Assembly: GCA_027067775.1 (NCBI GenBank)
Contig: JAMOVK010000149.1
Span: 4,379 to 68,378, forward strand
Reading direction: 5' to 3'
Length of the DNA: 64,000 bases
Source: Deltaproteobacteria bacterium
Lineage (GTDB): Bacteria > Desulfobacterota > Dissulfuribacteria > Dissulfuribacterales > QOAL01
Below, in pieces: positions 31,129-63,500 of this stretch. A program made the translations under genes and the position numbers. How positions within the stretch are numbered: position 1 is the first letter of the stretch; every line of letters begins with the position of its first letter. Under the pieces are notes generated by a model, which saw only the letters and a program-made list of their open reading frames with translations, did no database searches and was not told where the DNA came from.

Positions 31129-31686
31129 CTAAAACTCCATGATCTCCTTTTCCTTTGCCCCGAGAACTTCCTCCACCTTCTTTATATGATTGTCAGTAAG
31201 TTTTTGGACCTCGTCTTGAAGCTTGTACATCTCGTCTTCTGAAATGGCCTTGTCCTTCTTTTGGGTCTTGAGTTTCTCTATGGCATCCCTTCTGATGTTC
31301 CTTATTGCAACCCTGCAGTCTTCTGCCATCTTTTTAACCAGTTTGACTAGTTCCTTTCTTCTTTCCTCGGTTAGAGGAGGAACACTGACCCTGATTATCT
31401 TGCCGTCGTTGGAGGGCGTCAGTCCCAGGTCGGAAGAGAGAATCGCCTTTTCTATGTCGCCAAGGATGTTGCTATCCCAAGGTTGCACGGTAATAAGACG
31501 GCTTTCTGGCACAGAAATAGAAGCAACCTGGTTAAGTGGCATGCTGGTGCCGTAGTAATCCACAGTTATGCCCTCAAGCAGGGCTGCAGATGCCCTGCCA
31601 GTTCTTACATGTGAAAGTTCCTTTTCAAAGGCAGCAATGGCCTTGTCCATTCTTTTATCTGCATCCTTTATCACCTGGTTGGTCAT
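31129..31686 (-). CDS. frr: ribosome recycling factor
   Basis: 185 aa. ..[27 protein letters not shown]... Confidence 0.95.
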
Positions 31687-31714
31687 AATATCCTACCTCC
31701 TTAGAACAGGAACT

Positions 31715-32431
31715 TTATTCGGCCACAATCAGGCTTCCAATATCCTGGCCGGCAACTGCCTTTTGTATGTTTCCCTCTTTAAGCATATTGAACACCATAA
31801 CAGGAAGCTTTGCATCCTTTGCCAGGGCAATGGCAGCGGCATCCATAACCCTAAGCCCTTTTTCAAGAACCTGGGAATATGTAATCTTAGGGATTCTGAC
31901 TGCATCTTTATGTTTGTAAGGGTCCTTGTCATAGACCCCATCGACCCTTGTGGCCTTAAAAAGTATCTCAGCACCTATTTCCAGGGCCCTGAGGGCTGCA
32001 GCCGTATCGGTAGTAAAATAGGGATTACCGGTTCCAGCAGCAAAAATGACCACCCTTCCCCGTTCAAGGTGCCTTATGGCCCTTGGACGTGCAAAGGGTT
32101 CTGCCATTGTGCCTACTTCTATGGCCGAAAGCACCCTGGCTGGAATGTCCTTTCTCAAAAAGGCATCCTGCAGGGCAAGACTGTTGATGACCGTAGCGAG
32201 CATTCCCATCTGATCTGCAGATGCCCGGTTCATCCCCTTTGCAGCACCAGAGACCCCACGAAATATGTTTCCACCACCTACAACTATACCAAGTTCGACA
32301 CCTTGTGCCCTGGCCTTTGCCAGTTCATCAACCACCTTGTCCATGAACTGGGGACTTATGCCATAGGGCTCCTCACCCATAAGGGCCTCGCCACTAAGCT
32401 TAATAAGAACCCTTTTGTACTTGGCAGACAT
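31715..32431 (-). CDS. pyrH: UMP kinase
   Basis: [43 protein letters not shown]. Confidence 0.95.
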
Positions 32432-32437
32432 TTGCTC

Positions 32438-33037
32438 TTACTTTTCCCCTACCTGATAACGAACAAAACGACGTATGGAGATGTTCTCTCCCATCTTTGC
32501 CACAAGCTCGTTAAGAAGATCCTGAATGGTCAGGTCTGGATCTTTTACATAAGGCTGCTCAAGCAGGCAGATTTCCTTAAGATATTTTTCAATCCTTCCC
32601 TCAACTATCTTATCAACTATATGCTCGGGCTTGCCAGATTCAAGGGCCTGCTGCCTGTAAATCTCCCTTTCCTTGTCCAGTACATCCTGTGGGGCATCCT
32701 CCCTCTTGATGCAAAGGGGATTTGTGGCAGCAATATGCATGGCAACATTCCTGGCAAACTCAACAAACTGGTCTGTCTTTGCCACAAAGTCGGTCTCACA
32801 GTTTACCTCCACCATAACGCCAAGCTTGTTGCCGGCATGAATATAGCTTTGCACCACGCCTTCGCTGGTAGCCCTTCCAGCCCTCTTTGCAGCAACTGCA
32901 AGACCCTTCTGACGCAGGTAATCCACAGCCTTGTCCATGTCTCCGTCACACTCCTGCAGGGCCTTTTTACAATCCATCATACCAGCATTGGTCCTTTCCC
33001 TAAGCTCCTTGACCATTGCAGCTGTTATCTTTGCCAT
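32438..33037 (-). CDS. tsf: translation elongation factor Ts (short form)
   Basis: [28 protein letters not shown]...LR.KG. Confidence 0.9.
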
Positions 33038-33175
33038 GATATCTCTACCTCCGTATCTTCATCATTGTGGGATAAAAATGTTTAAATGGCCGTTTAAGCC
33101 AACCTTAATGCAAAAACGGCATCTGATACACCATCACCTGGATGGCACTCTAAAAATCTGGATTACTCCAAACGG

Positions 33176-47211: not shown

Positions 47212-49497
47212 TCAAAGAAGTCTTTCAAGCTCCACCTTCACCTGTTGAATTACATTATTGGTTGTATTTGACGTGGACAATCTAAAAATTTTGGCTGTTG
47301 GATACCAGGATGATTCAGAGCCGTGAACAGGCCAGCACCAATGACTTTGACCCTTGATCAGGATCCATACAGGTATTCCCAAGCCCCCAGCCAGATGTAC
47401 TACAGGACAATCAATAGTGATTACCAGATCAAGCTGCGTAATAAAGGCCGCCATATGCGCAAGATTGACCATTTTACGATCTAGAGGTTCCATTCCACAT
47501 TCTCCAGCCATCTTCTCGTGGACAGGATTTGACAGGCTTTGAAGACCAAAAAAATCGATCCCTTCTAAACTTGTTAATGGAATAAAATCTTCTAGACCAA
47601 ATGGCTGGAATAATGAACTTTCATTAGACCAAAAAAGTCCGACCTTCAATTCCCCATGTCCTTTAATAGGGGAAACCGCCACCTCTGATGGCACCTTTAG
47701 GTAAGGTGGTCTTTCTCCTGCATCTGGAACCAAAGGGTCAAATATAGATTTAAGACATGGAAGTCTCAACAAAGGACAGTAAACATCAAACTCATGGTCA
47801 TGAATATTAAACGGCAACCGGGCCAAAGAAACTCCAGGAACCTCTTCCATAAGAACCTGGAGCGGTTCTGGTGATGCTATTATCAAATGTTCACAAAGTT
47901 GAGATACAACAGAAAAAAGCCTGGCTAAAACTATGGCGTCTTGAATGCTTTGCTCCAGATGGATCAGCAGTTTCTTCCTGCCAAGGGCCTCACCAGACCA
48001 GATGGGATTCAAAGAATTAAATGCCTGAAAACCGGCCGTTTTTCTCCGCCACTGATATTCTTTCCAGCCCTGGCGGAACCTTCCAAGGCGCAGTAAAAGC
48101 CTGCCTTTGGCATAGTGGGCTGCAGCATAACCCCTGTCTGCCTCTAGAGCCCTGTCATAAAATTCAAGTGCCCTGTTATACTGTTCAAGCTCTACAAAAC
48201 AGTTTCCAAGAAGCAGACAGGCACTGGCATTTTCTGGATTATCTCTGTAGACCTTTTCCAAGATGTCAACAGCCTCTTCCCAATTGCCAAGGGCTGCTAA
48301 CGTATCTCCAAGAATATATGCGGCCCTGGTGTTATGAGGAGCCATCTTGAGTAACACCTTTAGCTTCTCTGCAGCATCCCGCAGCTTTCCATCCCTACGA
48401 AGAACAATGGCCTCATTAATCCTTGCCTCATCCGGGTCCTGTTGGGCCAAATCCTTGAGAGCCTCCTTTGGCAAAGAATATGACGTTCTTACAAGTGGAT
48501 CAGCAACATCTAAAATTACAGGGTTCTTCCATGGCAAAATCTCAACTGCAAAAATCTCATGAACCCCTGCATCAAACTGCAACCACCCAAGAACATTGCC
48601 CTTTCTCAAATCTACCAACCAAATACCACAAAAACGTTCTGAAAAACGTTTTGTCAGCGGAAGTCCTGAAAATACTGCAGTCTCTCTGACCCTAGAAAGT
48701 CCAATCAGGGCATAAGGCCCTACGAATGATATCCCCCTGCAGAAACCAGGAACTTCAGCAACAGTTTCTGATTTGCCATCTTCAGGATTTACAGTGATGA
48801 TCTTGCCTGTACCAGACTCAAGTACATAGAGCTTACCATTATACCATCGGGGAGAATGTGGCATGGAAAGACCTCTGCGGATTATTCGACCAGTTTCTAT
48901 ATCCACCAGGATTCCTCCAGAGGTCTTTGTCTCTCTCCATCCTCCAGGTGTATCAGCCTCTCCAAGGGCTGTAACGTAAGCAGGCCTCCCATCTCGCATG
49001 GCTATACCATTTAGATGGCACCTGTCACTCAAGTCATAGGCGCTAATGAAAGGAGGCCTCCATCGTGGCACTACACTATGTTCATGGTCTAAAGTACACA
49101 GACAGGACATTCGCGTATTTAAAAACCACAGTTCCCCTTCACTATCAAAAGCCATTTCGTGAATATCTATGTCTCCAGTTATATGTAACCTTCGGGGAAT
49201 AAAACATGCATCGTGACAGGTGGCAGAATCTACCTTAGAGGCCACATCTGGCATATTAAAATAGTCCCAGATCTGATATCCGGTCCCTACGGATAGTCTT
49301 GCTCCATTTGCTGCCATGCCCATTGGTTTTGACATGGCCACAAAATGGGTATTAAGCACCCTACCAGGCCTGAGAAGTATTAGCCTGCCTGCCTGATATG
49401 TGGAAATCAAGACAGAAACCCCTGCCTTAAGCAGAAATTCATTAAAGACAGGGGTATATTTGCTAGAAAAATTTGCTTGAGAGGGATGATTAGCCAT
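47212..49497 (-). CDS. three-part fusion: TIGR03032/DUF4915-like N-terminal domain + TPR repeats + GT9-like (heptosyltransferase-fold) C-terminal domain
   Basis: The N-terminal ~340 aa (..ISTYQAGRL..., ..HEMAFD..G.LWF.NT..SCL.., ..DRCHLNG.A...G.P.YVTA.., ..[19 protein letters not shown]..) match my memory of the uncharacterised TIGR03032 family. The middle has TPR-like repeats (..[14 protein letters not shown]...). The C-terminus ..[28 protein letters not shown]....[10 protein letters not shown] has the GT9-like pattern. The ATG overlaps the stop of the upstream surface-protein gene (gATGGCTAA). Confidence 0.7.
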
Positions 49498-51817
49498 CCT
49501 CAGACATTTTCTTTTTCTGTCTGAAAAAGACTGCTCCCAGCAACATAAGGCCTATCATTGATATCTTTTTACCCAGACCAGATACGGTTGGCACGCCAAT
49601 AATTGCATTTGCCTCTGTTCTGTCCTCATTGCCTGGAGCCGTCGGGTCATCGCTCAGAACACTATGTTGTCGATCATCTGAGCCAATATTCCCATCGTCA
49701 TCCGCGTCCCAGTATCCTGTTGCCTGATTGTAGACCGATGTTACACCATCTCTTACTGTGGTTTTAAATGTAATAACTACTTCATTAGAGGCACTGTTTT
49801 CATCTGTTGCACCAGGATCGGGAGCTATTCTGCCCTCCCAGACAACCATATTGTTTGCAGCATCATATTCACACCGGGACGTAACCGACGCTCCCTGCGG
49901 AATGCATTGTAAACTTCCGCTAATATAAGTTAATTCTGGTTGGACAGGATCTTCTACAAGAACATGTTCAGCATCTGCGTTGCTGTTATTTATCCATACC
50001 ATTTTCCATTCTATTTCTGGCCAACCGGCAGGATCAACCACCTTGATTGCAAAAGGCGGATCAAATACCCGGGGTGCTCGATTGATTGTCAGGCTCACAC
50101 GGGCCGTATCGCAGTCTCCATTGGAATCACAGATCTGGTATTCTAGCTTGTCATCGCCAAAGTAGTCGGGATCAGGGGTGTATTCTATATAATCGTCAGT
50201 AGGATCGTCTGGCGTACCACTGTCTTTTACTTCTGCCGTACCGTGTTGAGGACCCGCGGTGATTGTAATGGTCCCGTTGGAAGCTCCATCTCCTCCAAAA
50301 TCATCGTTGGCCGTTACAGGTATATCTACAGGGGTATCCTCATCGGTAGACGCCACATCGTCGCTGGCAGAAGGCAGATCATTGATTGGCCTGATCGTCA
50401 GGCTCACATGGGCCGTATCGCAGTCTCCATTGGAATCACACAATCTATACTCAAAAACATCTTTGCCATTATAGTTGGCATCTGGCGTATAAGTGATGGT
50501 ATCGTCAGTAGGATCATCTGGTGTGCCTTTATCATTTACTACTGCCGTACCATGAGACGGGTTGGTGGTCACGCTGAGTTTCCCTCGTGGGCCATCCCCT
50601 GTAAAATCATTATTGAGGACGCTCACCTCAACTGGGGTATCCTCATCCGTCTGAGCAGTATCATCAGCAGCATTAGGTAGCTGGTTTTCAAAGGCTCCGA
50701 TATCACATGCAACCGTACCGTCTCCATTTCCATCTATCGGTCTTAAAACATCTCTCTGGTCTGTTGTTACACTAACAGGAGCCTTGGTACAGTTTCCTGC
50801 AGCGTCAATTGCATCAGAGCCAGGAAGAAGGGCATGAGTTTTAGTAAGACCTCCGTTGTCTCTAAGATTGGTATCAAGGTTTAGATTGCCACTTGTAGCT
50901 ACTCCATTGCAACTGGCGTCTCCAAACCAGTTATTGCCCATATCATAAATAGAATTATAATTCACGGGAGCACAGTTTCCAACTCCACCCGTATTTTCAG
51001 CTACTATCGAATTCCATATCTTTAGATAGTCTTCATTATATACACCACTTGCACTTTTTGAATCATTCCCGTTTGATTTATTATGGGTAATGGTTGAATG
51101 TATTATATAACCATAAACATCGTAGCCATTACTGACGCCTCCACCTTTTTGTGCCGTATTGCCTGAAACAGTGGAATTTATAAGCTTGAATAATCCAAAG
51201 GTATCTGTACCAATACCTCCTCCCGTCTGGGCCTCATTTCCAGTAATGGTTGAGCTAATGATAGTTAAAGAACTTCCATCATAATGACCAACACCTCCTC
51301 CAATCCAGTGTGCCGTATTACCGGTTACAGTACAATTTATTATTGTGGTGTTGCTCGAACCAGTATTCACAACACCACCACCTATATGGGCTGCACCACC
51401 TTTAATTGTCATATTGTCAAGTATAAGGTCTCCATTACTTTTGGTCGTAAAAATACGAAATTCTGACGCATTTGAATCTCTTTCTACAGTAGCCCCATTT
51501 CCCTGAATGGTGATCTGCGATGTAATGGCAGGAAGTTCGGAAGTAAGGGTAATTGTACTGTATCCTGGCAATACTATGGTGTCTGCACCATTACCGGCGA
51601 CACATCCTCCTGTGGCAGTATCGCTGTTGGCTGATGTAATTGCATCCGCCAAGGTACAGCTGGCATTGTCTACGGTAATAGTTGCAGCTGTTGTTGTGTT
51701 TGCCGCTGCCAGAGAAAAAGCCGCTGCTGCAAGCATTCCTTTGCCAACCTTGCCTAAAGATCTTCTCTTTTTTCTTCTTTTGACCTTTTTGCGCTTTAGC
51801 GACTCCCTTTTAGTCAT
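49490..51817 (-). CDS. large secreted surface protein: right-handed beta-helix (Pmp-repeat/choice-of-anchor-type) + 2 cadherin/Ig-like repeats + DUF11-like domain + C-terminal TM/basic sorting tail
   Basis: Start taken at ATG 51817, which has AAGGAG upstream; the track TTG start is at 51847. Signal peptide ..[17 protein letters not shown](V/I)..N beta-helix repeats (..[14 protein letters not shown].., ..[16 protein letters not shown].., ..[16 protein letters not shown]..). Two 103-aa repeats [27 protein letters not shown]-terminus [29 protein letters not shown]. Confidence 0.75.
50080..50700 (-). repeat. tandem ~309-bp (103-codon) intragenic repeat, two units
   Basis: tcaggctcaca(c/t)gggccgtatcgcagtctccattggaatcaca occurs at 50089 and again at 50398 (period 309 bp). 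The encoded units are the cadherin/Ig-like repeats of the surface protein. Confidence 0.85.
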
Positions 51818-52133
51818 TACTCCTTCTCCCTTCGTCCTGGCAAACAACGACCCAAAGGAGGTTGGTTTTTCAGAATTGCTGTCCCCTGAAAAGAAACAAT
51901 GTAGTACCCAAAAAGTAGTCGTTTTTGCCGTGAATAAAGCTATAGATCTTTATGTTACTTGCCCATCACTAAAATACCCACCGAGTTCTTTAAAAATAAA
52001 CAGCTCCTTTTTATGCGCAGCAAGAGCTTCATTCCTTAATATTCAAGGGTACCATTGTCAATATATAAATGGGAAAGGGGAAAATACAGCCATCTCCAAA
52101 GCAAACAATCCCAATAACAGTGAATAGAACTTT

Positions 52134-58323: not shown

Positions 58324-59202
58324 ATGAATCCGGAGACACGGCCTGAGATAAAACGGCAGCCACTTCTTCCCATTGACTGGAACAGTTCAGAGCTTCCTAC
58401 CATGCCTTCTATTGCCCAAAAGCTCATAACTCTACTTTGTCAGGAAGAGGTTGAAACCCAGCAGCTATGTGATCTTATAGCCAGTGATCCTGCCCTTACT
58501 GCAAGGCTTTTACAGATCTCAAACAGTGCCCTTTACTCCTTAAGCGCAGAGGTCACCTCTATCAGACAGGCCGTGGTTCTCCTTGGTCAGCAAGAGGTTA
58601 TACAGCTTGCCATAAGTAGCCTCCTTGCCAAGAGACTCCTTACCGTACCGGAGGCGATAAAATCCCATGCAGAAAAGCTTTGGAAACATCTTATGACAAC
58701 GGCTGTGCTTGCACAGGATTTTGAATTCGATGTGGAAGAACCCGATCTTTACACCCTGTCCATGCTTCACGATGTAGGCTGGCTGGTCCTGATGTCTCAG
58801 GCGCCTACCCTGTTTGTCTCTCTTTTTGAAGACAAAGGCCGGACGCTTAACGAACTTGAGGCAAGCTGGGGGGTTGATCATGAACTTTGGGGAGCAAAGC
58901 TGCTTGAAAAGTGGGGCCTTCCAGAGCCGTTTCAGATCACTGCCTACAGACATCACCATCCCTTTGCAGATACCGCTCCTCCCAAATACCTGCTGATTGT
59001 AAGCCTGGCAAACTTTCTTGCAAATTCCATGGGAAATTGTCTGTTAGACACTGAAGAACCAGAACCGTCTGATGCCCTTCTGGAACGGCTTGGCCTTGAC
59101 AGGCAGGCCCTTTACGAGATGGTCCAGTGGGCTATTTCTGAAAAAGACAAGATAGATATGAAGTGCGCGCTTGTTTCTGATATTACCCGCACATCAAGAT
59201 AG
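58324..59202 (+). CDS. HDOD domain-containing signalling protein
   Basis: ..LPTMPSIAQKLI.L......DLIASDPALTARLLQISNSALY.. and ..LHDVG.. form the HDOD pattern. Confidence 0.8.
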   Translation: MNPETRPEIKRQPLLPIDWNSSELPTMPSIAQKLITLLCQEEVETQQLCDLIASDPALTARLLQISNSALYSLSAEVTSIRQAVVLLGQQEVIQLAISSLLAKRLLTVPEAIKSHAEKLWKHLMTTAVLAQDFEFDVEEPDLYTLSMLHDVGWLVLMSQAPTLFVSLFEDKGRTLNELEASWGVDHELWGAKLLEKWGLPEPFQITAYRHHHPFADTAPPKYLLIVSLANFLANSMGNCLLDTEEPEPSDALLERLGLDRQALYEMVQWAISEKDKIDMKCALVSDITRTSR

Positions 59203-59373
59203 CCAATACCATATTAGAGGCCCTTTCCAACAGTCGTCATTCTTCACGATGAGCATGGAGAAAAAATGAAGAAGAATCTGGCAGACATGACTGCAACAAC
59301 CCATGCCATAAATGAATCACAAAAAGCCTTCTTCCTTCTCAAGGAATGCAGATTGGCAGGAGGTGACTTTCAC

Positions 59374-59504
59374 AGACTGGAAAGCAGGCCCAAGAGCTTC
59401 TAAGGTTCGCTTCGCTGAAACGCTCCAAAACCGCTCGCTCACGCTCGCTAAATGGAGGTTTCAGCCGCTTCGCTTCACCAAGAATCTCTAGGCCCTGTTC
59501 CCAA
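59374..59504. repeat. 131-bp inverted repeat, left copy (IR-L)
   Basis: The reverse complement of 59374-59504 equals 60440-60570 at 129/131 positions. The mismatches are at 59442/60502 and 59389/60555. Confidence 0.95.
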
Positions 59505-60439
59505 CGCCTGATGAAAAGCCACCATCCTGGCCAATCTGCAACCGATCTAGAACCTTTCTCCTGTAACATACAGCTAGAACCAGAAAATCAATGTGGGACA
59601 TCCGGTGCGGGCTTCAGAAATAACGGCCTTAATAACAACGCAATTTTAAGGCGCCACCTTTCACCCTCGATTGCATAAAACGGAGGCATTCTGGAAAGTA
59701 CAAGTAGTAACGGGCTGGTCCTCACCCCTAAATCACAATTTAACGGTATTGCTAAGACATTTAATAAAATCAAAAACATGGAACGGCAGGGTTAAGCCGC
59801 CGGCTTGAACCCATTGTTGGGCCTCTTAATTTTCTACCGTTTGTTTTGACAAGTTCCTTAATTCCCTTTGCACCCTTTCTGCCAAAAATTTGAGCTCATT
59901 CAATAGAGTCTCTGGCAACCTCAATGATATGGTCTTCACAGACGGCTTCAAATTGGGCAATACTAACCTCTCTCCACTGCTCCAATCTATGTACTCGGTG
60001 GAATCGTTTGATGACCAGAACTCTCTTTCTTGATCTCGTTGTCAAATATTGGTATCTCTTTTTTCCTCATCATAGTTTTCTGTATATCTCTCGTTCTTTT
60101 CGGCTCATTTCTCTTGCTGAAATAATCCGGATTTTTGTACCCCTGATGGTAAATACAATGAAAAGCGGCCTATTAAAAAATATCTGTTCACACTCGAAAT
60201 TACCGACCCGATGCCTTAACCGCATCGTCTATGTATTAAGTATATGCTCTATATACTTGACGCAAGAAAAGATTTATCCCTTTTAACTCAACTGCTCCAA
60301 CCTACTAAATTTTAAAGAATTATGCTGATTCACCACCATTTTAGGTCCAACTTGGGTAGTTGCCAGTTTTTAAAGGTAATGGTCTGAACCAACAGAATTA
60401 TCAGGTGGATAGGGCAAGGATAGGGGTTTGATTAGACAT

Positions 60440-60570
60440 TTGGGAACAGGGCCTAGAGATTCTTGGTGAAGCGAAGCGGCTGAAACCTCCATTTAGCGAG
60501 CATGAGCGAGCGGTTTTGGAGCGTTTCAGCGAAGCGAACCTTAGAAGCTCTTGGCCCTGCTTTCCAGTCT
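60440..60570. repeat. 131-bp inverted repeat, right copy (IR-R)
   Basis: ttgggaacagggcctagagattcttggtgaagcgaagcggctgaaacctccatttagcgagcatgagcgagcggttttggagcgtttcagcgaagcgaaccttagaagctcttggccctgctttccagtct. See IR-L. The unit is itself an imperfect palindrome. Confidence 0.95.
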
Positions 60571-61066
60571 AGTCAAGGCCCTTCCTTGCCCTTCCTTTTA
60601 CCCCGAAAAGACTGGGTGAACAGGATGTTATCCTGTCTGTCGTTTTCCTCTTAAATCATGTCATGCAGAAAGATTGTCTCTTGGTGAAGTCTCTTTATTG
60701 AAACAGGTCCAGGCCTAGGTCTAGTATTTCATTACGGAGTTACAGTAACAAGTTGAATCCACAAGTTCGTCATCTCTTTCATGTTCCCAGTTACAACCCC
60801 GACTAGACTATTTTGTTAGCCGTTTTCGATTTTACTTAATATCCTCAATATTCATATGAACCAGCAATCCAAGGCAGCCATTTTTTTAAAAAAATTCCTT
60901 TGATATGATCTTTTTTATTTAAGTATAAAACCAGTTTAACCGATGAATTACTTAACTTATGGGTCGTTAATAACATTATGATATTTTTGTATATTTATCC
61001 TTCACCCTGGCTGCAAGAGACGTGGGTATTGAAAACAGAAGAGGTCTTTTAGGAGGAAATTGGAAG

Positions 61067-63340
61067 ATGAGAAAAAAAAGAGCCCGATCAGCCTCATTGT
61101 CACTGTCACATCGACTTGCAATGGGCATTTCGTTTTTGATTATAATCATTTTAGGCATACAAGGCTTCTTTTCCTATAAAACTGCACTGGATAAAAAACA
61201 GGAAGAAATTGCAAAGGCACTTAAGGGAAAAGACGCTTTCATGATAGAAGCTGGAGACTTGTCCTCGGTACTCTTAAAGCAGGCAATTATAATTGCCAGC
61301 ATTCCTGAAATCAAGGAAGCACTACTTGATCGGGACAGACAGGGTCTCCTGTCCCTTGTAAACTCTATTGAGAATAAACTGGTAAAGGAAACCAAGGAAT
61401 CCATTAAAATTCACTTCCACATCCCTCCGGCAACATCCTTTTTGAGAAGCTGGAAACCTGATAAATTTGGAGACGATCTGTCATCCTTTCGTCCATCGGT
61501 AGTAAAAGTCCTGCAGACAGGACAACCGGTGAAAGGAATCGACTCCGGAAAAAACGGGCTTTCTATAAGAGGTATCGCCCCTATAAGAGCAGATGGCAAG
61601 ATAGTTGGAAGCGTAGAAATCATCAAAAATTGTGCCCAGGTAGCAGAAAAATTGGGCAAAATAAATGGAATAATCAATCACATTTTTATTCTCAAGAATC
61701 CTGGACGAAACGGAGGTAGCAAGAGGTTTACAGCTATCACAGACATAAATGAAGACCTTTTAAAACAGATAGACGAGGATTTCCTTGAAAAGGCCCTGAA
61801 GCAGGGCTGGGCCAAAAAAATGACAGGACGTCATGTCATAACTGCCGCTGCTATCTCTGACTTTTCTGGCAAACCGGTGGCAGTATACACGAGATATATT
61901 GATTTTACAAAGATAAACCAGGAATTGAGAAACAACCTGATTGAGCTTGGCCTTGTCCTGATCGCATTTCTGACAATTTCATTGATCACAGCAGTTGTTT
62001 TTTTAAGGAAAACACTGTCAAATCCGTTAACTAACTGTATTCAGACATTAATTTCGGCTTCGGAAGGGAACCTAAACAAAGCCGCAGTCCCCAAGGGAGC
62101 ACCGGAAATAAAAAACATTGCCACCGCCACCAATAACATTATTTACAACACCGGAATGTTACTAGAAACTCTCAAGTCACAGAGCGACAGTCTTAACATA
62201 CTAGGGGAACAGCTTAAAACCATCGTTAACAAAATCCATGATGGGGCAAAAGCCATAGACCATGCTGCCAATGCCATGGTGGACTCCTCTGCCAAAGCCT
62301 CTTCAACACTTTCCACTGTTGCCAGCGCATCCAATGAACTGAATGCCGCCACCAGTGAAATAGCTCAGAATGTTTCAGAGACAGCCAGGATAGCAAATGA
62401 GGCATCCGAAGAGGCGGAGAATACCAATGAACTGATGAAACATCTTGGAGAACAGTCCGAAAAGATCAAAGACATCATAACAGTCATAAACTCTATTGCT
62501 GAACAGACAAACCTGTTGGCACTCAATGCCACAATAGAGGCAGCCCGAGCTGGAGAGGCAGGAAAAGGTTTTGCCGTTGTAGCTAACGAGGTCAAAGAGC
62601 TTGCCAAGCAGACCGCCTCTGCAACCGATGAAATTACCGATATCATAAGCTCGTTAACAGATGGAATCTCAAATGCAGTCCTGGCTGTCGGCAACATCAC
62701 AGAGACAATAAACAAGGTCAATGACCTTGCAAACACCATAGCCAGTGCTGCTGAGGAACAAACTGCTACGGTTTCCGAAATAGATAACAGTATTACCGAT
62801 GGTGCAAGCAGCGTAGAAAATCTGGAACAAGAAGCAAGAACTCTTGCAAAAAGATCCAACGATTTCCTAACCTACTCTGGACGGATCAGGTTTGCTGAGG
62901 AATCCATAATTGATATTGGTAAAAGACTGGATTCTGTTACTGGTATGTACTCTGTAGAAAGACATGCCCTTGAACAGGCTGCAAAGGATGCTACAGACAA
63001 GGTTAAACTGATAGTAGCTTTCCTGGCTCACTTCAAATGGCTTGAGAATTACCGTGTGGCAATATTTACACGAAAAAAACCGGAAATCGAAAGAGACCCC
63101 AACAAATGCCTGCTTGGGCAATTCCTCAATGAACAGGCAGACCTTCTAAATGTCATTACAAGTTCAGAACTGACAGAAGCCCGAACCATTCATAATGAAA
63201 TCCATAAAAGTATTGACTACATGGAAAAAATGATAGACAGCGATGCTGAAGACCTGGAACTGGTTAACGAATTTGATTCAAGGGTGACAAGCAAATTGCA
63301 TCGACTTATAGAACTCATAGGCAAGGCTATAAACAACTAG
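61067..63340 (+). CDS. methyl-accepting chemotaxis protein: periplasmic Cache-type sensor + MA signalling domain + C-terminal CZB (zinc-binding) domain
   Basis: Start at ATG 61067 with GGAGGA upstream; the track GTG start is at 61022. Cache_3/Cache_2-like motif [30 protein letters not shown] domain [36 protein letters not shown]-terminal AHFKW..(x)..[17 protein letters not shown] is the CZB pattern. Confidence 0.9.

Positions 63341-63425: not shown

Positions 63426-63500
<75 letters not shown>

What the first reader, a model, noticed from the sequence alone, without database searches (positions are those of the whole stretch)
59374..60570. Two 131-bp near-identical inverted repeats bracket a 935-bp gene-less segment in the window's only large intergenic gap
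Seen in sequence. 59374-59504 and 60440-60570 are reverse complements at 129/131 positions. Degenerate similarity continues ~20 nt outward and ~40 nt inward (e.g. atcctggccaatc versus atccttgccctatc), so an older, longer duplication has a sharply conserved core. The repeats lie in a 1.86-kb stretch (59203-61066) without any convincing gene, between an HDOD gene and an MCP gene, whereas the rest of the window is tightly packed. I see three possible readings. (a) A decayed IS or composite element with unusually long terminal inverted repeats, although I found no clear target-site duplication. (b) A recombination-invertible cassette upstream of the chemoreceptor gene. (c) Two copies of a dispersed hairpin element or sRNA gene. 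There is no recombinase, transposase or reverse transcriptase anywhere in the window, so whatever acts on it would act in trans. I cannot place it in any repeat family I know.
Basis: seen in the sequence. Interest (0 to 1): 0.8.

Follow-up and report, generated by a model that had tools for sequence, protein, structure and literature searches.

The report
Hairpin-ended dispersed repeat carrying integron cassette
The two inverted repeats are the folded ends of one copy of a selfish, non-coding DNA repeat scattered through the genomes of a group of sulfate-reducer-like bacteria, and this copy later received a now-decayed toxin-antitoxin gene cassette; it is a newly seen repeat family but an ordinary kind of thing.

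Summary
Arms 59374-59504 and 60440-60570 are reverse complements at 129/131 positions, and nothing else like them exists in the window. The interpretation needs revising in three ways.

1. The pair is one copy (59341-60601) of a dispersed, non-coding intergenic element. A related MAG has at least 7 loci and a window-like metagenome population has at least 4 more. Canonical copies are about 640 bp: two inverted ~130-nt hairpin modules (A and B, only 75-85% alike) around a ~300-bp interior. Orthologous HDOD-MCP spacers in relatives (133 and 379 bp) lack it.

2. The near-identity is specific to this copy. The left arm has B-type flanks but an A-type core, which indicates gene conversion from the right arm.

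3. The interior is not gene-less. Positions 59784-60350 are an integron-type gene cassette carrying decayed brnT-brnA and an attC. It was inserted at G|TT of a site that is uninterrupted in other copies. This is a "SALIN" at an attG-type site, a known phenomenon.

The hairpin is supported by covariation, folds best on one strand, and carries three conserved GCGNAGC/GCGNNAGC mini-hairpin motifs. No target-site duplication, transposase or known RNA family was found, so what mobilises the element is unknown. I found no evidence for an invertible switch.

The parts
59233..59340 (.). Left outer flank ('LO'), itself repeated. A partial paralog lies next to the paralog of the right outer flank at L001:18100-18180, where there are no hairpins.
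   Evidence: absent from orthologous spacers of relatives
59341..60601 (.). The whole copy of the dispersed hairpin-ended element (1261 bp; canonical copies are about 640 bp).
   Evidence: Colinear with L016:746-1381 and L017:1765-2509 apart from the cassette; boundaries are taken from where the flanks of different copies diverge
59341..59373 (.). B-side outer terminus (AAGGAATGCAGATTGGCAGGAGGTGACTTTCAC).
   Evidence: 100% and 94% identical to the B sides of L016 and L017, but 64% to the window's own A side
59374..59504 (-). Left hairpin module. The folding (G-rich) strand is the minus strand. The core is A-type, converted from the right arm.
   Evidence: CM R1 147.6 bits on the minus strand against 21 bits on the plus strand; RNA fold -59.8 kcal/mol, z = -4.3; apical core 98.6% to the right arm against 65-72% to B arms
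59505..59783 (.). B-side interior of the canonical element.
   Evidence: 78% identical overall to L016/L017; the first 56 nt are 96% and 89% identical; alignment
59784..60350 (-). Integron-type gene cassette (567 bp) inserted at G|TT. It begins TTGGAC... and ends ...CTGCCG on the minus strand.
   Evidence: Junctions CCCAAG|TTGGAC and CTGCCG|TTCCATG, against the uninterrupted CCCAAG|TTCCATG in L016; 74-87% DNA identity to the brnTA cassette in arrays L026-L028
59778..59822 (-). attC site of the cassette. R'' is GCCCAAC (59816-59822). The L boxes are GGGTTCAAGCC / GGCTTAACCC, with one extrahelical base. The R' box is a hybrid, G|TTCCAT.
   Evidence: the reconstituted site folds at -11.3 kcal/mol, z = -2.3, with attC geometry; homologous to the 72-73-nt attCs of L026-L028
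59826..60073 (-). brnA (CopG/RHH antitoxin) pseudogene, with a 1-nt frameshift after about 13 codons and a 48-nt in-frame deletion.
   Evidence: PF12441, E = 6e-7; 81% identity to intact 97-98-aa BrnA proteins; alignment to L026/L029
60070..60225 (-). brnT (ribonuclease toxin) remnant. Only the C-terminal 51 codons remain open, and there are two internal deletions relative to the intact 102-aa gene.
   Evidence: PF04365, E = 1.8e-8, profile positions 51-77 of 77; alignment
60226..60350 (-). 5' part of the cassette (upstream region of brnT).
   Evidence: 74% identity to L026:723-854 and L028:766-894
60351..60439 (.). A-side interior of the canonical element.
   Evidence: 91% identity to L016 and 87% to L017
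60440..60570 (+). Right hairpin module (A-type). The folding strand is the plus strand.
   Evidence: CM R1 151 bits on the plus strand against 28.6 bits on the minus strand; RNA fold -63.4 kcal/mol, z = -5.7
60571..60601 (.). A-side outer terminus (AGTCAAGGCCCTTCCTTGCCCTTCC...).
   Evidence: Shared with L014-L017
60602..60688 (.). Right outer flank ('RO'), an optional module. It is also next to the A arm in L014 (85%) and occurs without hairpins at L001:18007-18100 (92%).

Best explanation
Window 59341-60601 is one copy of a dispersed, non-autonomous intergenic repeat element found in a group of Thermodesulfobacteriota-like genomes. The canonical element is about 640 bp. It has two long terminal modules in inverted orientation (types A and B, 75-85% identical) around a ~300-bp AT-rich interior. 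Each module folds on one specific strand into a ~130-nt imperfect hairpin, and in both modules that strand reads outward from the element. Each hairpin displays three GCGNAGC/GCGNNAGC mini-hairpin motifs. Three events shaped the window's copy. (i) The element arrived between the HDOD and MCP genes after this lineage split from relatives whose HDOD proteins are 76-81% identical. (ii) A circular integron gene cassette carrying brnT-brnA and an attC was inserted by an integron integrase acting in trans. The crossover was at G|TT in a small central hairpin of the element. The toxin-antitoxin genes then decayed. (iii) The hairpin core of the left (B) arm was overwritten by the right (A) arm through intramolecular gene conversion. 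This produced the 129/131 identity with sharp edges. Shown: the dispersal, the empty orthologous sites, the conserved strand-specific fold, the cassette junctions and the mosaic arm. Inferred: that the element is, or was, mobilised in trans by an unlinked enzyme that recognises the folded ends, probably as single-stranded DNA. Also inferred: that the copy is now an inert relic with no role in regulating the chemoreceptor gene.
For: Dispersal: an exact 20-mer from the core hits 8 contigs of one MAG, and a family-level pattern hits 8 contigs from two metagenomes; several hits lie at contig ends. All complete copies have the same minus-then-plus pair architecture. Whole units are 83-89% identical between loci. 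Every copy is intergenic between unrelated housekeeping genes. Empty sites: the HDOD-MCP gap is 379 bp in L021 and 133 bp in L024/L025, with no homology to the element. Fold: 35 pairs, 98.1% of cells paired, 10 pairs with two-sided changes, and slid controls at 24-55%. The folding strand scores about 150 bits against 20-28 bits for the opposite strand. Mini-hairpin motif: 53 occurrences on the folding strand, 0 on the other, and about 1.5 expected. Cassette: DNA homology to brnTA cassettes in arrays with 72-73-nt attCs; the shared homology starts exactly at G|TTGGGC behind different upstream cassettes; the window junctions compare with the uninterrupted L016 site. Isolated cassettes at 5'-GWT-3' attG sites are documented (bioRxiv 10.1101/2022.09.11.507474). 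Conversion: segment identities are given.
Against: No target-site duplication was found, and the outer ends are ragged with optional modules, which is unlike a clean cut-and-paste transposon. No autonomous partner or transposase was identified, and none lies near any copy. The copy number in the window's own genome is unknown, because its genome was not returned by the scan. The relatives with empty sites are too diverged for base-level definition of the insertion. Strong purifying-type conservation of the hairpin would also fit a host function, as RNA or as a DNA structure. The direction of the cassette event (insertion, or a deletion shared by L016 and L017) rests on the G|TT junction logic, not on a phylogeny.
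Confidence: 0.7

Rival explanations
1. The hairpin modules are primarily functional RNA or DNA-structure elements that were spread secondarily. Candidates are outward-transcribed structured sRNAs or leaders, RNA-stabilising or terminating hairpins like ERIC/REP, or single-strand initiation or other ssDNA sites. On this view they are more than the cis-acting ends of a selfish element.
For: There is covariation, and G-U pairs make one strand fold much better. Motifs in the unpaired loops are conserved. The A modules are intact in every copy and 95-100% identical, while interiors drift and B arms often decay. The canonical interior has a bidirectional terminator-like hairpin and more promoter-like hexamers than shuffles, 5 against 1.2.
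Against: No Rfam family matches. No expression data are available. The modules always come as a pair with an interior, in unrelated intergenic contexts, and the site is absent in relatives. That pattern is typical of selfish spread. The promoter scan is weak evidence. GCGNAGC is best documented as a DNA motif, not an RNA motif (PMC13037366).
Confidence: 0.15
2. It is a composite structure. Two independent 131-bp hairpin elements (MITE- or ERIC-like) inserted separately, or as a pair, and happen to bracket captured DNA that includes the TA genes.
For: Each arm is a self-contained hairpin. Enterobacterial ERIC and Neisseria Correia elements are single hairpin units of similar size (own knowledge).
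Against: No intact solo module was found away from a contig end. All 8 complete or near-complete units are pairs with a homologous interior. The sequences flanking the window's left core are B-arm sequences, so the left arm was a B arm from the start. The TA block has its own integron-type boundaries inside the element.
Confidence: 0.07
3. It is a recombination-invertible cassette (phase-variation switch) upstream of the chemoreceptor gene.
For: Near-perfect 131-bp inverted repeats are good substrates for RecA-dependent inversion. The gene conversion shows that the arms have recombined at least once.
Against: There is no recombinase in the window. Two independent assemblies have the same orientation. 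The interior has the same orientation as in the canonical copies L016 and L017. It contains only pseudogenes and no evident outward promoter aimed at the MCP gene, whose start lies more than 450 bp beyond the right arm. Other copies have diverged arms and unrelated neighbours.
Confidence: 0.04
4. It is a remnant of an integron array (CALIN) in which the 131-nt hairpins are giant attC sites.
For: A genuine attC and cassette lie between the arms. attC sites can reach about 140 nt and fold strand-specifically (own knowledge).
Against: The hairpins lack the R''/R' boxes at their base. Their only AAC...GTT pair is in the apical stem, without the two-box and spacer geometry. They are in inverted orientation, not direct. 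They flank a conserved non-cassette interior and occur between housekeeping genes with no cassettes. The hairpin model finds nothing in the true arrays L026-L029.
Confidence: 0.02

Closest known systems
MITEs, and mobile insertion cassettes (MICs: transposase-less elements with IS-type ends that carry passenger genes)
   Same: The element is small and non-coding, has terminal inverted repeats, has multiple dispersed intergenic copies, is present or absent at orthologous sites, and can carry a passenger (the TA cassette in the window's copy).
   Different: The terminal repeats are very long (about 130-190 nt) and are themselves conserved strand-specific hairpins. No target-site duplication was found, the outer ends are ragged or mosaic, and no matching autonomous IS is known. 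The passenger arrived by integron-type recombination and was not captured between IS ends.
ERIC/IRU elements of enterobacteria and Correia elements of Neisseria (about 100-150-bp imperfect palindromic intergenic repeats)
   Same: Each module is an imperfect palindrome of similar size, is intergenic, is dispersed, and can fold in transcripts.
   Different: Here two different modules, A and B, always come as an inverted pair around a ~300-bp interior. The organisms belong to a different phylum and there is no sequence similarity. Correia elements have TA duplications.
REP / BIME / REPIN repeats mobilised by RAYT (HUH Y1) transposases
   Same: They are intergenic, form hairpins, act strand-specifically as single-stranded DNA, leave no target duplication, and have a mosaic organisation with optional motifs. 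This is the closest analogy for how the element may work.
   Different: REP units are 20-40 nt and carry a GTAG or CGTC tag (PMC3733652). These modules are about 130 nt and have no conserved tag. No RAYT could be searched for.
SALIN: an isolated integron cassette inserted at a genomic attG site (Loot et al., bioRxiv 10.1101/2022.09.11.507474)
   Same: The brnTA block has a single attC, no integrase nearby, boundaries at G|TT, and an insertion point that fits 5'-GWT-3'. An uninterrupted allele of the target is available (L016).
   Different: The target lies inside another repeat element, in the arm of a small hairpin. The cassette carries a TA pair that has since decayed. The attC is short (about 45 nt).
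Intramolecular gene conversion between inverted repeats, as seen in IS or transposon ends and rRNA or tuf paralogs
   Same: A sharply bounded tract of near-identity lies inside older, diverged repeats.
   Different: Nothing unusual. The tract coincides with the hairpin core.

Membership tests
MITE / non-autonomous TIR element | Short, non-coding, no transposase gene | tested here: met
   Canonical copies are about 600-745 bp and contain no conserved ORF. No transposase is present in the window.
MITE / non-autonomous TIR element | Terminal inverted repeats | tested here: met
   The A and B arms are 75-85% identical in canonical copies and 98.5% in the window.
MITE / non-autonomous TIR element | Multiple dispersed copies with different flanks | tested here: met
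   At least 7 loci in MAG CAYZJS01. The window locus plus L014-L017 make up the window-type population.
MITE / non-autonomous TIR element | Target-site duplication at the ends | tested here: not met
   The flanks of 8 copies show no direct duplication, and the outer ends are ragged. Boundaries could not be fixed to the base because no close empty site was available.
MITE / non-autonomous TIR element | A related autonomous IS with matching ends | not testable with these tools
   No whole genomes could be scanned. Annotated plasmids and phages give no match, and the viral contig scans were empty.
MITE / non-autonomous TIR element | Presence/absence at orthologous sites | tested here: met
   The HDOD-MCP spacer is 133-379 bp and lacks the element in L021, L024 and L025.
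REP / REPIN / BIME | 20-40-nt palindromic units with a conserved GTAG or CGTC tag | tested here: not met
   The modules are about 130 nt. GTAG is present only in the MAG A-type.
REP / REPIN / BIME | An associated RAYT gene in the genome | not testable with these tools
   The genome was not available. No RAYT is present in the window or in the fetched loci.
Integron gene cassette / SALIN (brnTA block) | A 3' attC with R''(..AAC)/L''/L'/R'(GTT..) boxes, an unpaired spacer and extrahelical base(s) | tested here: met
   The sequence is GCCCAAC-AAT-GGGTTCAAGCC-GGC-GGCTTAACCC-TGCC-G|TT. The reconstituted bottom strand folds with that geometry.
Integron gene cassette / SALIN (brnTA block) | Cassette boundaries at G|TTRRRY | tested here: met
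   The 5' junction is AAG|TTGGAC and the 3' junction is CCG|TTCCAT. The same boundary, G|TTGGGC, is seen in L026 and L028.
Integron gene cassette / SALIN (brnTA block) | The same cassette found in arrays with different neighbours and repeated attCs | tested here: met
   L026/L027 and L028 have different upstream cassettes, and there are three homologous 72-73-nt attCs per contig.
Integron gene cassette / SALIN (brnTA block) | A single attC with no integron integrase nearby | tested here: met
   There is no integrase in the 64 kb and only one attC-like site in 59300-60700.
Integron gene cassette / SALIN (brnTA block) | Recognition by the curated attC covariance model (IntegronFinder) | not tested
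Integron gene cassette / SALIN (brnTA block) | The arrays L026-L028 belong to an integron with intI and attI | not testable with these tools
   These contigs are only about 3 kb long.
BrnT/BrnA type II toxin-antitoxin system | Intact toxin (about 100 aa) and antitoxin (about 97 aa) genes | tested here: not met
   Both genes carry deletions and brnA has a frameshift. They are pseudogenes.
Invertible DNA switch (inverton) | Both orientations present, with a dedicated recombinase | tested here: not met
   There is no recombinase, and two assemblies show a single orientation. Read-level data were not available.
attC site (for the 131-nt hairpins themselves) | R''/R' boxes at the base of the stem and direct orientation in arrays | tested here: not met

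The most novel reading that the evidence does not exclude
The ~130-nt module may be a new class of structured single-strand recognition element. It consists of a 35-bp covarying scaffold that presents three GCGNAGC/GCGNNAGC mini-hairpins on one strand only. It might be the substrate of a still unidentified enzyme that mobilises the ~640-bp element without target duplication, such as a HUH-type or other ssDNA-acting transposase or recombinase. Alternatively it might be an RNA device. A more speculative extension concerns the element's central GGAAC-N7-GTTCC hairpin, which received the cassette. It might be a preferred integrase site, which would make the repeat a dispersed landing pad for integron cassettes.
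Probability: 0.2. Interest if true: 0.7.

Novelty: new variant of a known kind. Interest (0 to 1): 0.42.

Why it matters
The finding explains an odd-looking 1.9-kb gap as three ordinary processes stacked on one another: spread of a selfish repeat, integron-cassette insertion outside an integron, and gene conversion.

Two points have some wider value. First, it defines a previously undescribed structured repeat family in poorly studied Thermodesulfobacteriota-like genomes. The repeat breaks metagenome assemblies, and its strand-specific hairpin with conserved mini-hairpin motifs points to a single-strand mechanism that could be tested.

Second, it provides a natural before-and-after example of a toxin-antitoxin integron cassette inserted at a genomic G|TT (attG-type) site in an uncultured lineage. 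Both the uninterrupted target and the donor-type cassette array were recovered. This supports the recently proposed route for cassette dissemination.

Tried and rejected
- **Known RNA families.** Rfam at E ≤ 1 on the window region and on canonical copies gave only a tRNA at 63426-63497 and noise.
- **Viral contigs.** Scans with the core 21-mer and with the family pattern gave 0 hits.
- **Annotated plasmids and phages.** blastn in distant mode with a canonical copy gave no match.
- **Further copies.** The hairpin covariance model found no diverged copies elsewhere in the window, in the relatives' HDOD loci, or in the brnTA loci.
- **Target-site duplication and target motif.** Comparison of flanks found nothing convincing. 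A TGCAG-containing motif recurs near some outer ends, but in inconsistent orientation.
- **Base-level empty site.** The relatives' HDOD-MCP spacers cannot be aligned with the window beyond about 30 nt near the MCP promoter.
- **One look-up failed.** The BrnA relative P0056 is not on record.
- **brnTA as ancestral cargo.** I considered that brnTA was carried by the element and lost by deletion in compact copies. I rejected this in favour of insertion, because the block has exact integron-cassette boundaries at G|TT and its own attC.
- **Hairpins as attC sites, CRISPR repeats or retron msd.** I rejected these. The hairpins have no R boxes, there is no array, and there is no reverse transcriptase.
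- **Assembly artefact.** This is rejected by the independent assembly L001.
Full report
**1. Observation.** The repeat finder reports arms 59358-59504 and 60440-60586 (147 nt, 94% complementary, 935 nt apart). Direct comparison gives 129/131 matches for 59374-59504 against 60440-60570, with weak similarity continuing about 16 nt outward and a little inward. It is the only long repeat of any kind in the 64-kb window. The next inverted pairs are 30-32 nt at 70-81%. An independent metagenome contig (L001, ENA ERZ27262658, 20 SNPs in 15,677 nt) has the same structure in the same orientation. The repeat is therefore real and not an assembly artefact. The HDOD gene (58324-59202) and the MCP gene (about 61067-63340) flank it as stated.

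**2. The arms are hairpins with a preferred strand.** Each 131-nt arm folds on its own into a long imperfect hairpin. The strand that begins TTGGGAACAGGGCC folds much better than its complement: -59.8 and -63.4 kcal/mol (z = -4.3 and -5.7) against -45.2 and -53.1 kcal/mol. The same asymmetry appears with DNA parameters. That strand is the minus strand of the left arm and the plus strand of the right arm, so in both arms it reads outward from the interior.

**3. The pair belongs to a dispersed family.**
- An exact 20-mer from the core found 8 contigs in the GTDB species-representative collection. All belong to one MAG (CAYZJS01, labelled uncultured Thermodesulfatator sp.), and several hits lie at contig ends.
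- A family-level gapped pattern found 8 contigs in two JGI metagenomes.
- Only the repeat matches the window (88-97%), so these are other loci or other genomes.
- In every locus where both sides are assembled, there are two modules in inverted orientation with the folding strands pointing outward, 300-400 bp apart.
- Whole units of about 600-745 bp are 83-89% identical between loci of the MAG.
- Within a unit, the two modules (here called A and B) are only 75-85% identical.
- All copies lie in spacers between unrelated housekeeping genes (ndk/tig-clpP-clpX, ftsA-ftsZ, ffh-rimM-trmD and others), and no transposase is nearby.
- Allowing for contigs that are two sides of one locus, the MAG has at least 7 loci. 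The window-like population (Ga0256835) has at least 4 in addition to the window's.

**4. The fold is conserved by covariation.** I aligned 17 distinct modules (window, window-type A and B, MAG A and B). RNAalifold gave a 35-pair hairpin. Ten pairs show compensatory two-sided changes and almost none are broken. Counting on that structure gives 98.1% of cells paired. Sliding the 3' partners by 1-3 columns drops this to 24-55%, and no shuffle out of 500 reaches the observed covariation score. The lineages are few, so the number of independent events is small. A covariance model scores the folding strand at 114-154 bits for intact modules and the opposite strand at 18-29 bits. It finds no further copies in the window or in the relatives' loci. 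The stretches predicted to be unpaired are not random. Every module carries GCGNAGC or GCGNNAGC at three fixed positions: both internal loops and the apex. The total is 53 occurrences on the folding strand, none on the other, and about 1.5 expected. The N positions vary (GCGAAGC, GCGGAGC, GCGTAAGC, GCGCAAGC, GCGTGAGC, GCGCTAGC). These are the sequences of the 'extraordinarily stable mini-hairpin DNA' motif (PMC13037366). I read this as a hint that the module acts as folded single-stranded DNA, but an RNA role is not excluded.

**5. The site is empty in relatives.** Orthologs of the HDOD protein exist at 76-86% identity. Synteny is conserved in three loci (VanZ-UDG-NfeD-Band_7-HDOD-MCP-cytochrome-EamA). 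There the HDOD-MCP spacer is 379 bp (L021, from the same sample as L001) or 133 bp (L024, L025), against about 1.9 kb in the window. These spacers have no similarity to the element or to its outer flanks. Only about 30 nt near the MCP promoter align. The element, and the about 0.4 kb of extra flanking sequence, are therefore lineage-specific additions.

**6. Why the two cores are nearly identical.** L016 and L017 are compact copies from a window-like population and are colinear with the window's copy. Segment by segment, the window's left arm compares as follows:

| Segment | vs L016 B side | vs L017 B side | vs window's own right arm (A) |
|---|---|---|---|
| Outer flank 59341-59373 | 100% | 94% | 64% |
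| Apical core 59407-59478 | 65% | 72% | 98.6% |
| Inner flank 59505-59560 | 96% | 89% | 61% |

The left arm was therefore a B arm whose hairpin core was overwritten by the A arm of the same element. This is gene conversion between inverted repeats.

**7. The interior is not gene-less.** Relative to L016, the window has an extra block that coincides with remnants of a BrnT toxin (PF04365) and a BrnA/CopG antitoxin (PF12441) on the minus strand. Intact relatives of BrnA (97-98 aa, up to 81% identity) exist. In contigs L026-L028 the brnT-brnA pair sits in tandem arrays of toxin-antitoxin modules (Phd/ParE, BrnT/BrnA, Zeta-like, MazE). The window's block is 74-87% identical at the DNA level to that module over its whole length. 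It differs by two deletions in brnT, a 1-nt frameshift in brnA, and a 48-nt in-frame deletion in brnA.

The arrays have the hallmarks of integron cassette arrays. Each module is followed by a homologous 72-73-nt site of the form ..AAC-spacer-stem with extrahelical bases-spacer-GTT... L026 and L028 have different upstream modules and become identical exactly at G|TTGGGC.

On the window's minus strand the sequence reads ...ACTACCCAAG|TTGGACCTAAAATGG...[brnT, brnA]...TAAGAG-GCCCAAC-AAT-GGGTTCAAGCC-GGC-GGCTTAACCC-TGCC-G|TTCCATG.... L016 reads ...ACCACCCAAG|TTCCATG... without interruption. The block 59784-60350 therefore starts with TTRRRY, ends with an attC, and interrupts a G|TT. This is what recombination between a circular cassette's attC and a secondary site would produce. 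Rejoining the two ends gives a 45-nt attC that folds with the expected geometry.

From memory, the left half (AACAAT..GTTCAAGCCG) also resembles the classical 59-base-element consensus. I did not test this. Isolated cassettes ('SALIN') and genomic 'attG' sites with a 5'-GWT-3' consensus have been described experimentally (bioRxiv 10.1101/2022.09.11.507474). The target lies in the 3' arm of a small hairpin (GGAAC-CACCCAA-GTTCC) flanked by T-runs on both strands. This is a bidirectional terminator-like structure at the centre of the canonical element.

**8. What remains unknown.** I could not find a target-site duplication. The outer ends of different copies diverge at slightly different points and carry optional modules. 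One such module is the window's right outer flank, 60602-60688. It is also next to an A arm in L014. It also occurs, together with a partial copy of the left outer flank and 16 nt of the B terminus but no hairpins, 5.8 kb downstream at L001:18007-18180. This mosaic, duplication-free behaviour resembles REP/BIME/REPIN repeats more than classical MITEs. However, the modules are far larger than REPs and lack their tags. No transposase, integrase, reverse transcriptase or HUH enzyme is encoded in the window or next to any copy. No known RNA family matches, and nothing similar exists in annotated plasmids, phages or viral contigs.

**9. Verdict.** The structure is a relic copy of a new family of dispersed, hairpin-ended, non-autonomous intergenic repeats. 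It was modified by an integron-cassette insertion and by gene conversion. The kind of object is known, but the family and its module architecture are not. I find no support for a regulatory inversion switch at the chemoreceptor gene. I cannot exclude RecA-mediated inversion without read-level data.

Noticed in passing
window 47212-51847: Two genes lie between the RimK-like gene and the MacB/FtsX gene: a DUF4915 + TPR protein and a cadherin/Big_9 repeat protein. In four relatives (L019, L021, L023, L024) RimK and MacB/FtsX are directly adjacent, so this is a lineage-specific insertion of about 4.9 kb.
   Followed up: partly
window 50083-50554: There is a tandem duplication with a 309-bp period (49 nt at 96% and 95 nt at 73%) inside the cadherin/Big_9 gene. 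It probably reflects repeated Ig-like domains.
   Followed up: no
L001:18007-18180 (about 5.8 kb beyond the window's end, between the EamA and ScpB genes): This is a hairpin-less paralog of the sequences that flank the element in the window. It has the right outer flank (92%), 28 unrelated nt, 16 nt of the B terminus, and part of the left outer flank. It is either a deletion derivative of an element or a separate small repeat that the element associates with.
   Followed up: partly
L016:985-1001 (equivalent to the window site split at 59783/59784 and 60350/60351): The centre of the canonical element is a small hairpin, GGAAC-CACCCAA-GTTCC, with T-runs on both strands, like a bidirectional terminator. 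The integron cassette was inserted in its 3' arm.
   Followed up: partly
L026, L027, L028 (whole contigs, about 3 kb each): These are arrays made only of toxin-antitoxin modules (Phd/ParE, BrnT/BrnA, Zeta-like, MazE). The modules are separated by highly similar 72-73-nt attC-type sites, which suggests a chromosomal integron. L026 comes from an ENA sample whose accession number (ERZ27262694) is close to that of L001's sample (ERZ27262658).
   Followed up: partly
L003:5173-5275, L016:1255-1348, L009:4277-4324: B-type hairpin modules are often damaged, by internal deletions or reduction to a 34-43-nt remnant. A-type modules are intact and 95-100% identical in every copy. This suggests that the A module is the more constrained end.
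   Followed up: partly
L019 and L020 (HDOD ortholog, 86% identity): In this closest relative, the HDOD gene is followed by an unannotated 283-aa gene and a cytochrome/Ni_hydr_CYTB gene on the opposite strand instead of the MCP gene. The region downstream of HDOD is therefore a rearrangement hotspot in this clade.
   Followed up: no
window 31568-33085 (+): A 505-aa ORF with no Pfam match lies between the ribosome-recycling-factor and ribosomal protein S2 genes, which are on the minus strand. It is probably a spurious antisense ORF over the genes expected there. I did not examine it.
   Followed up: no
window 63426-63497 (+): A tRNA gene lies just downstream of the MCP gene (Rfam RF00005, 71.9 bits).
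   Followed up: no
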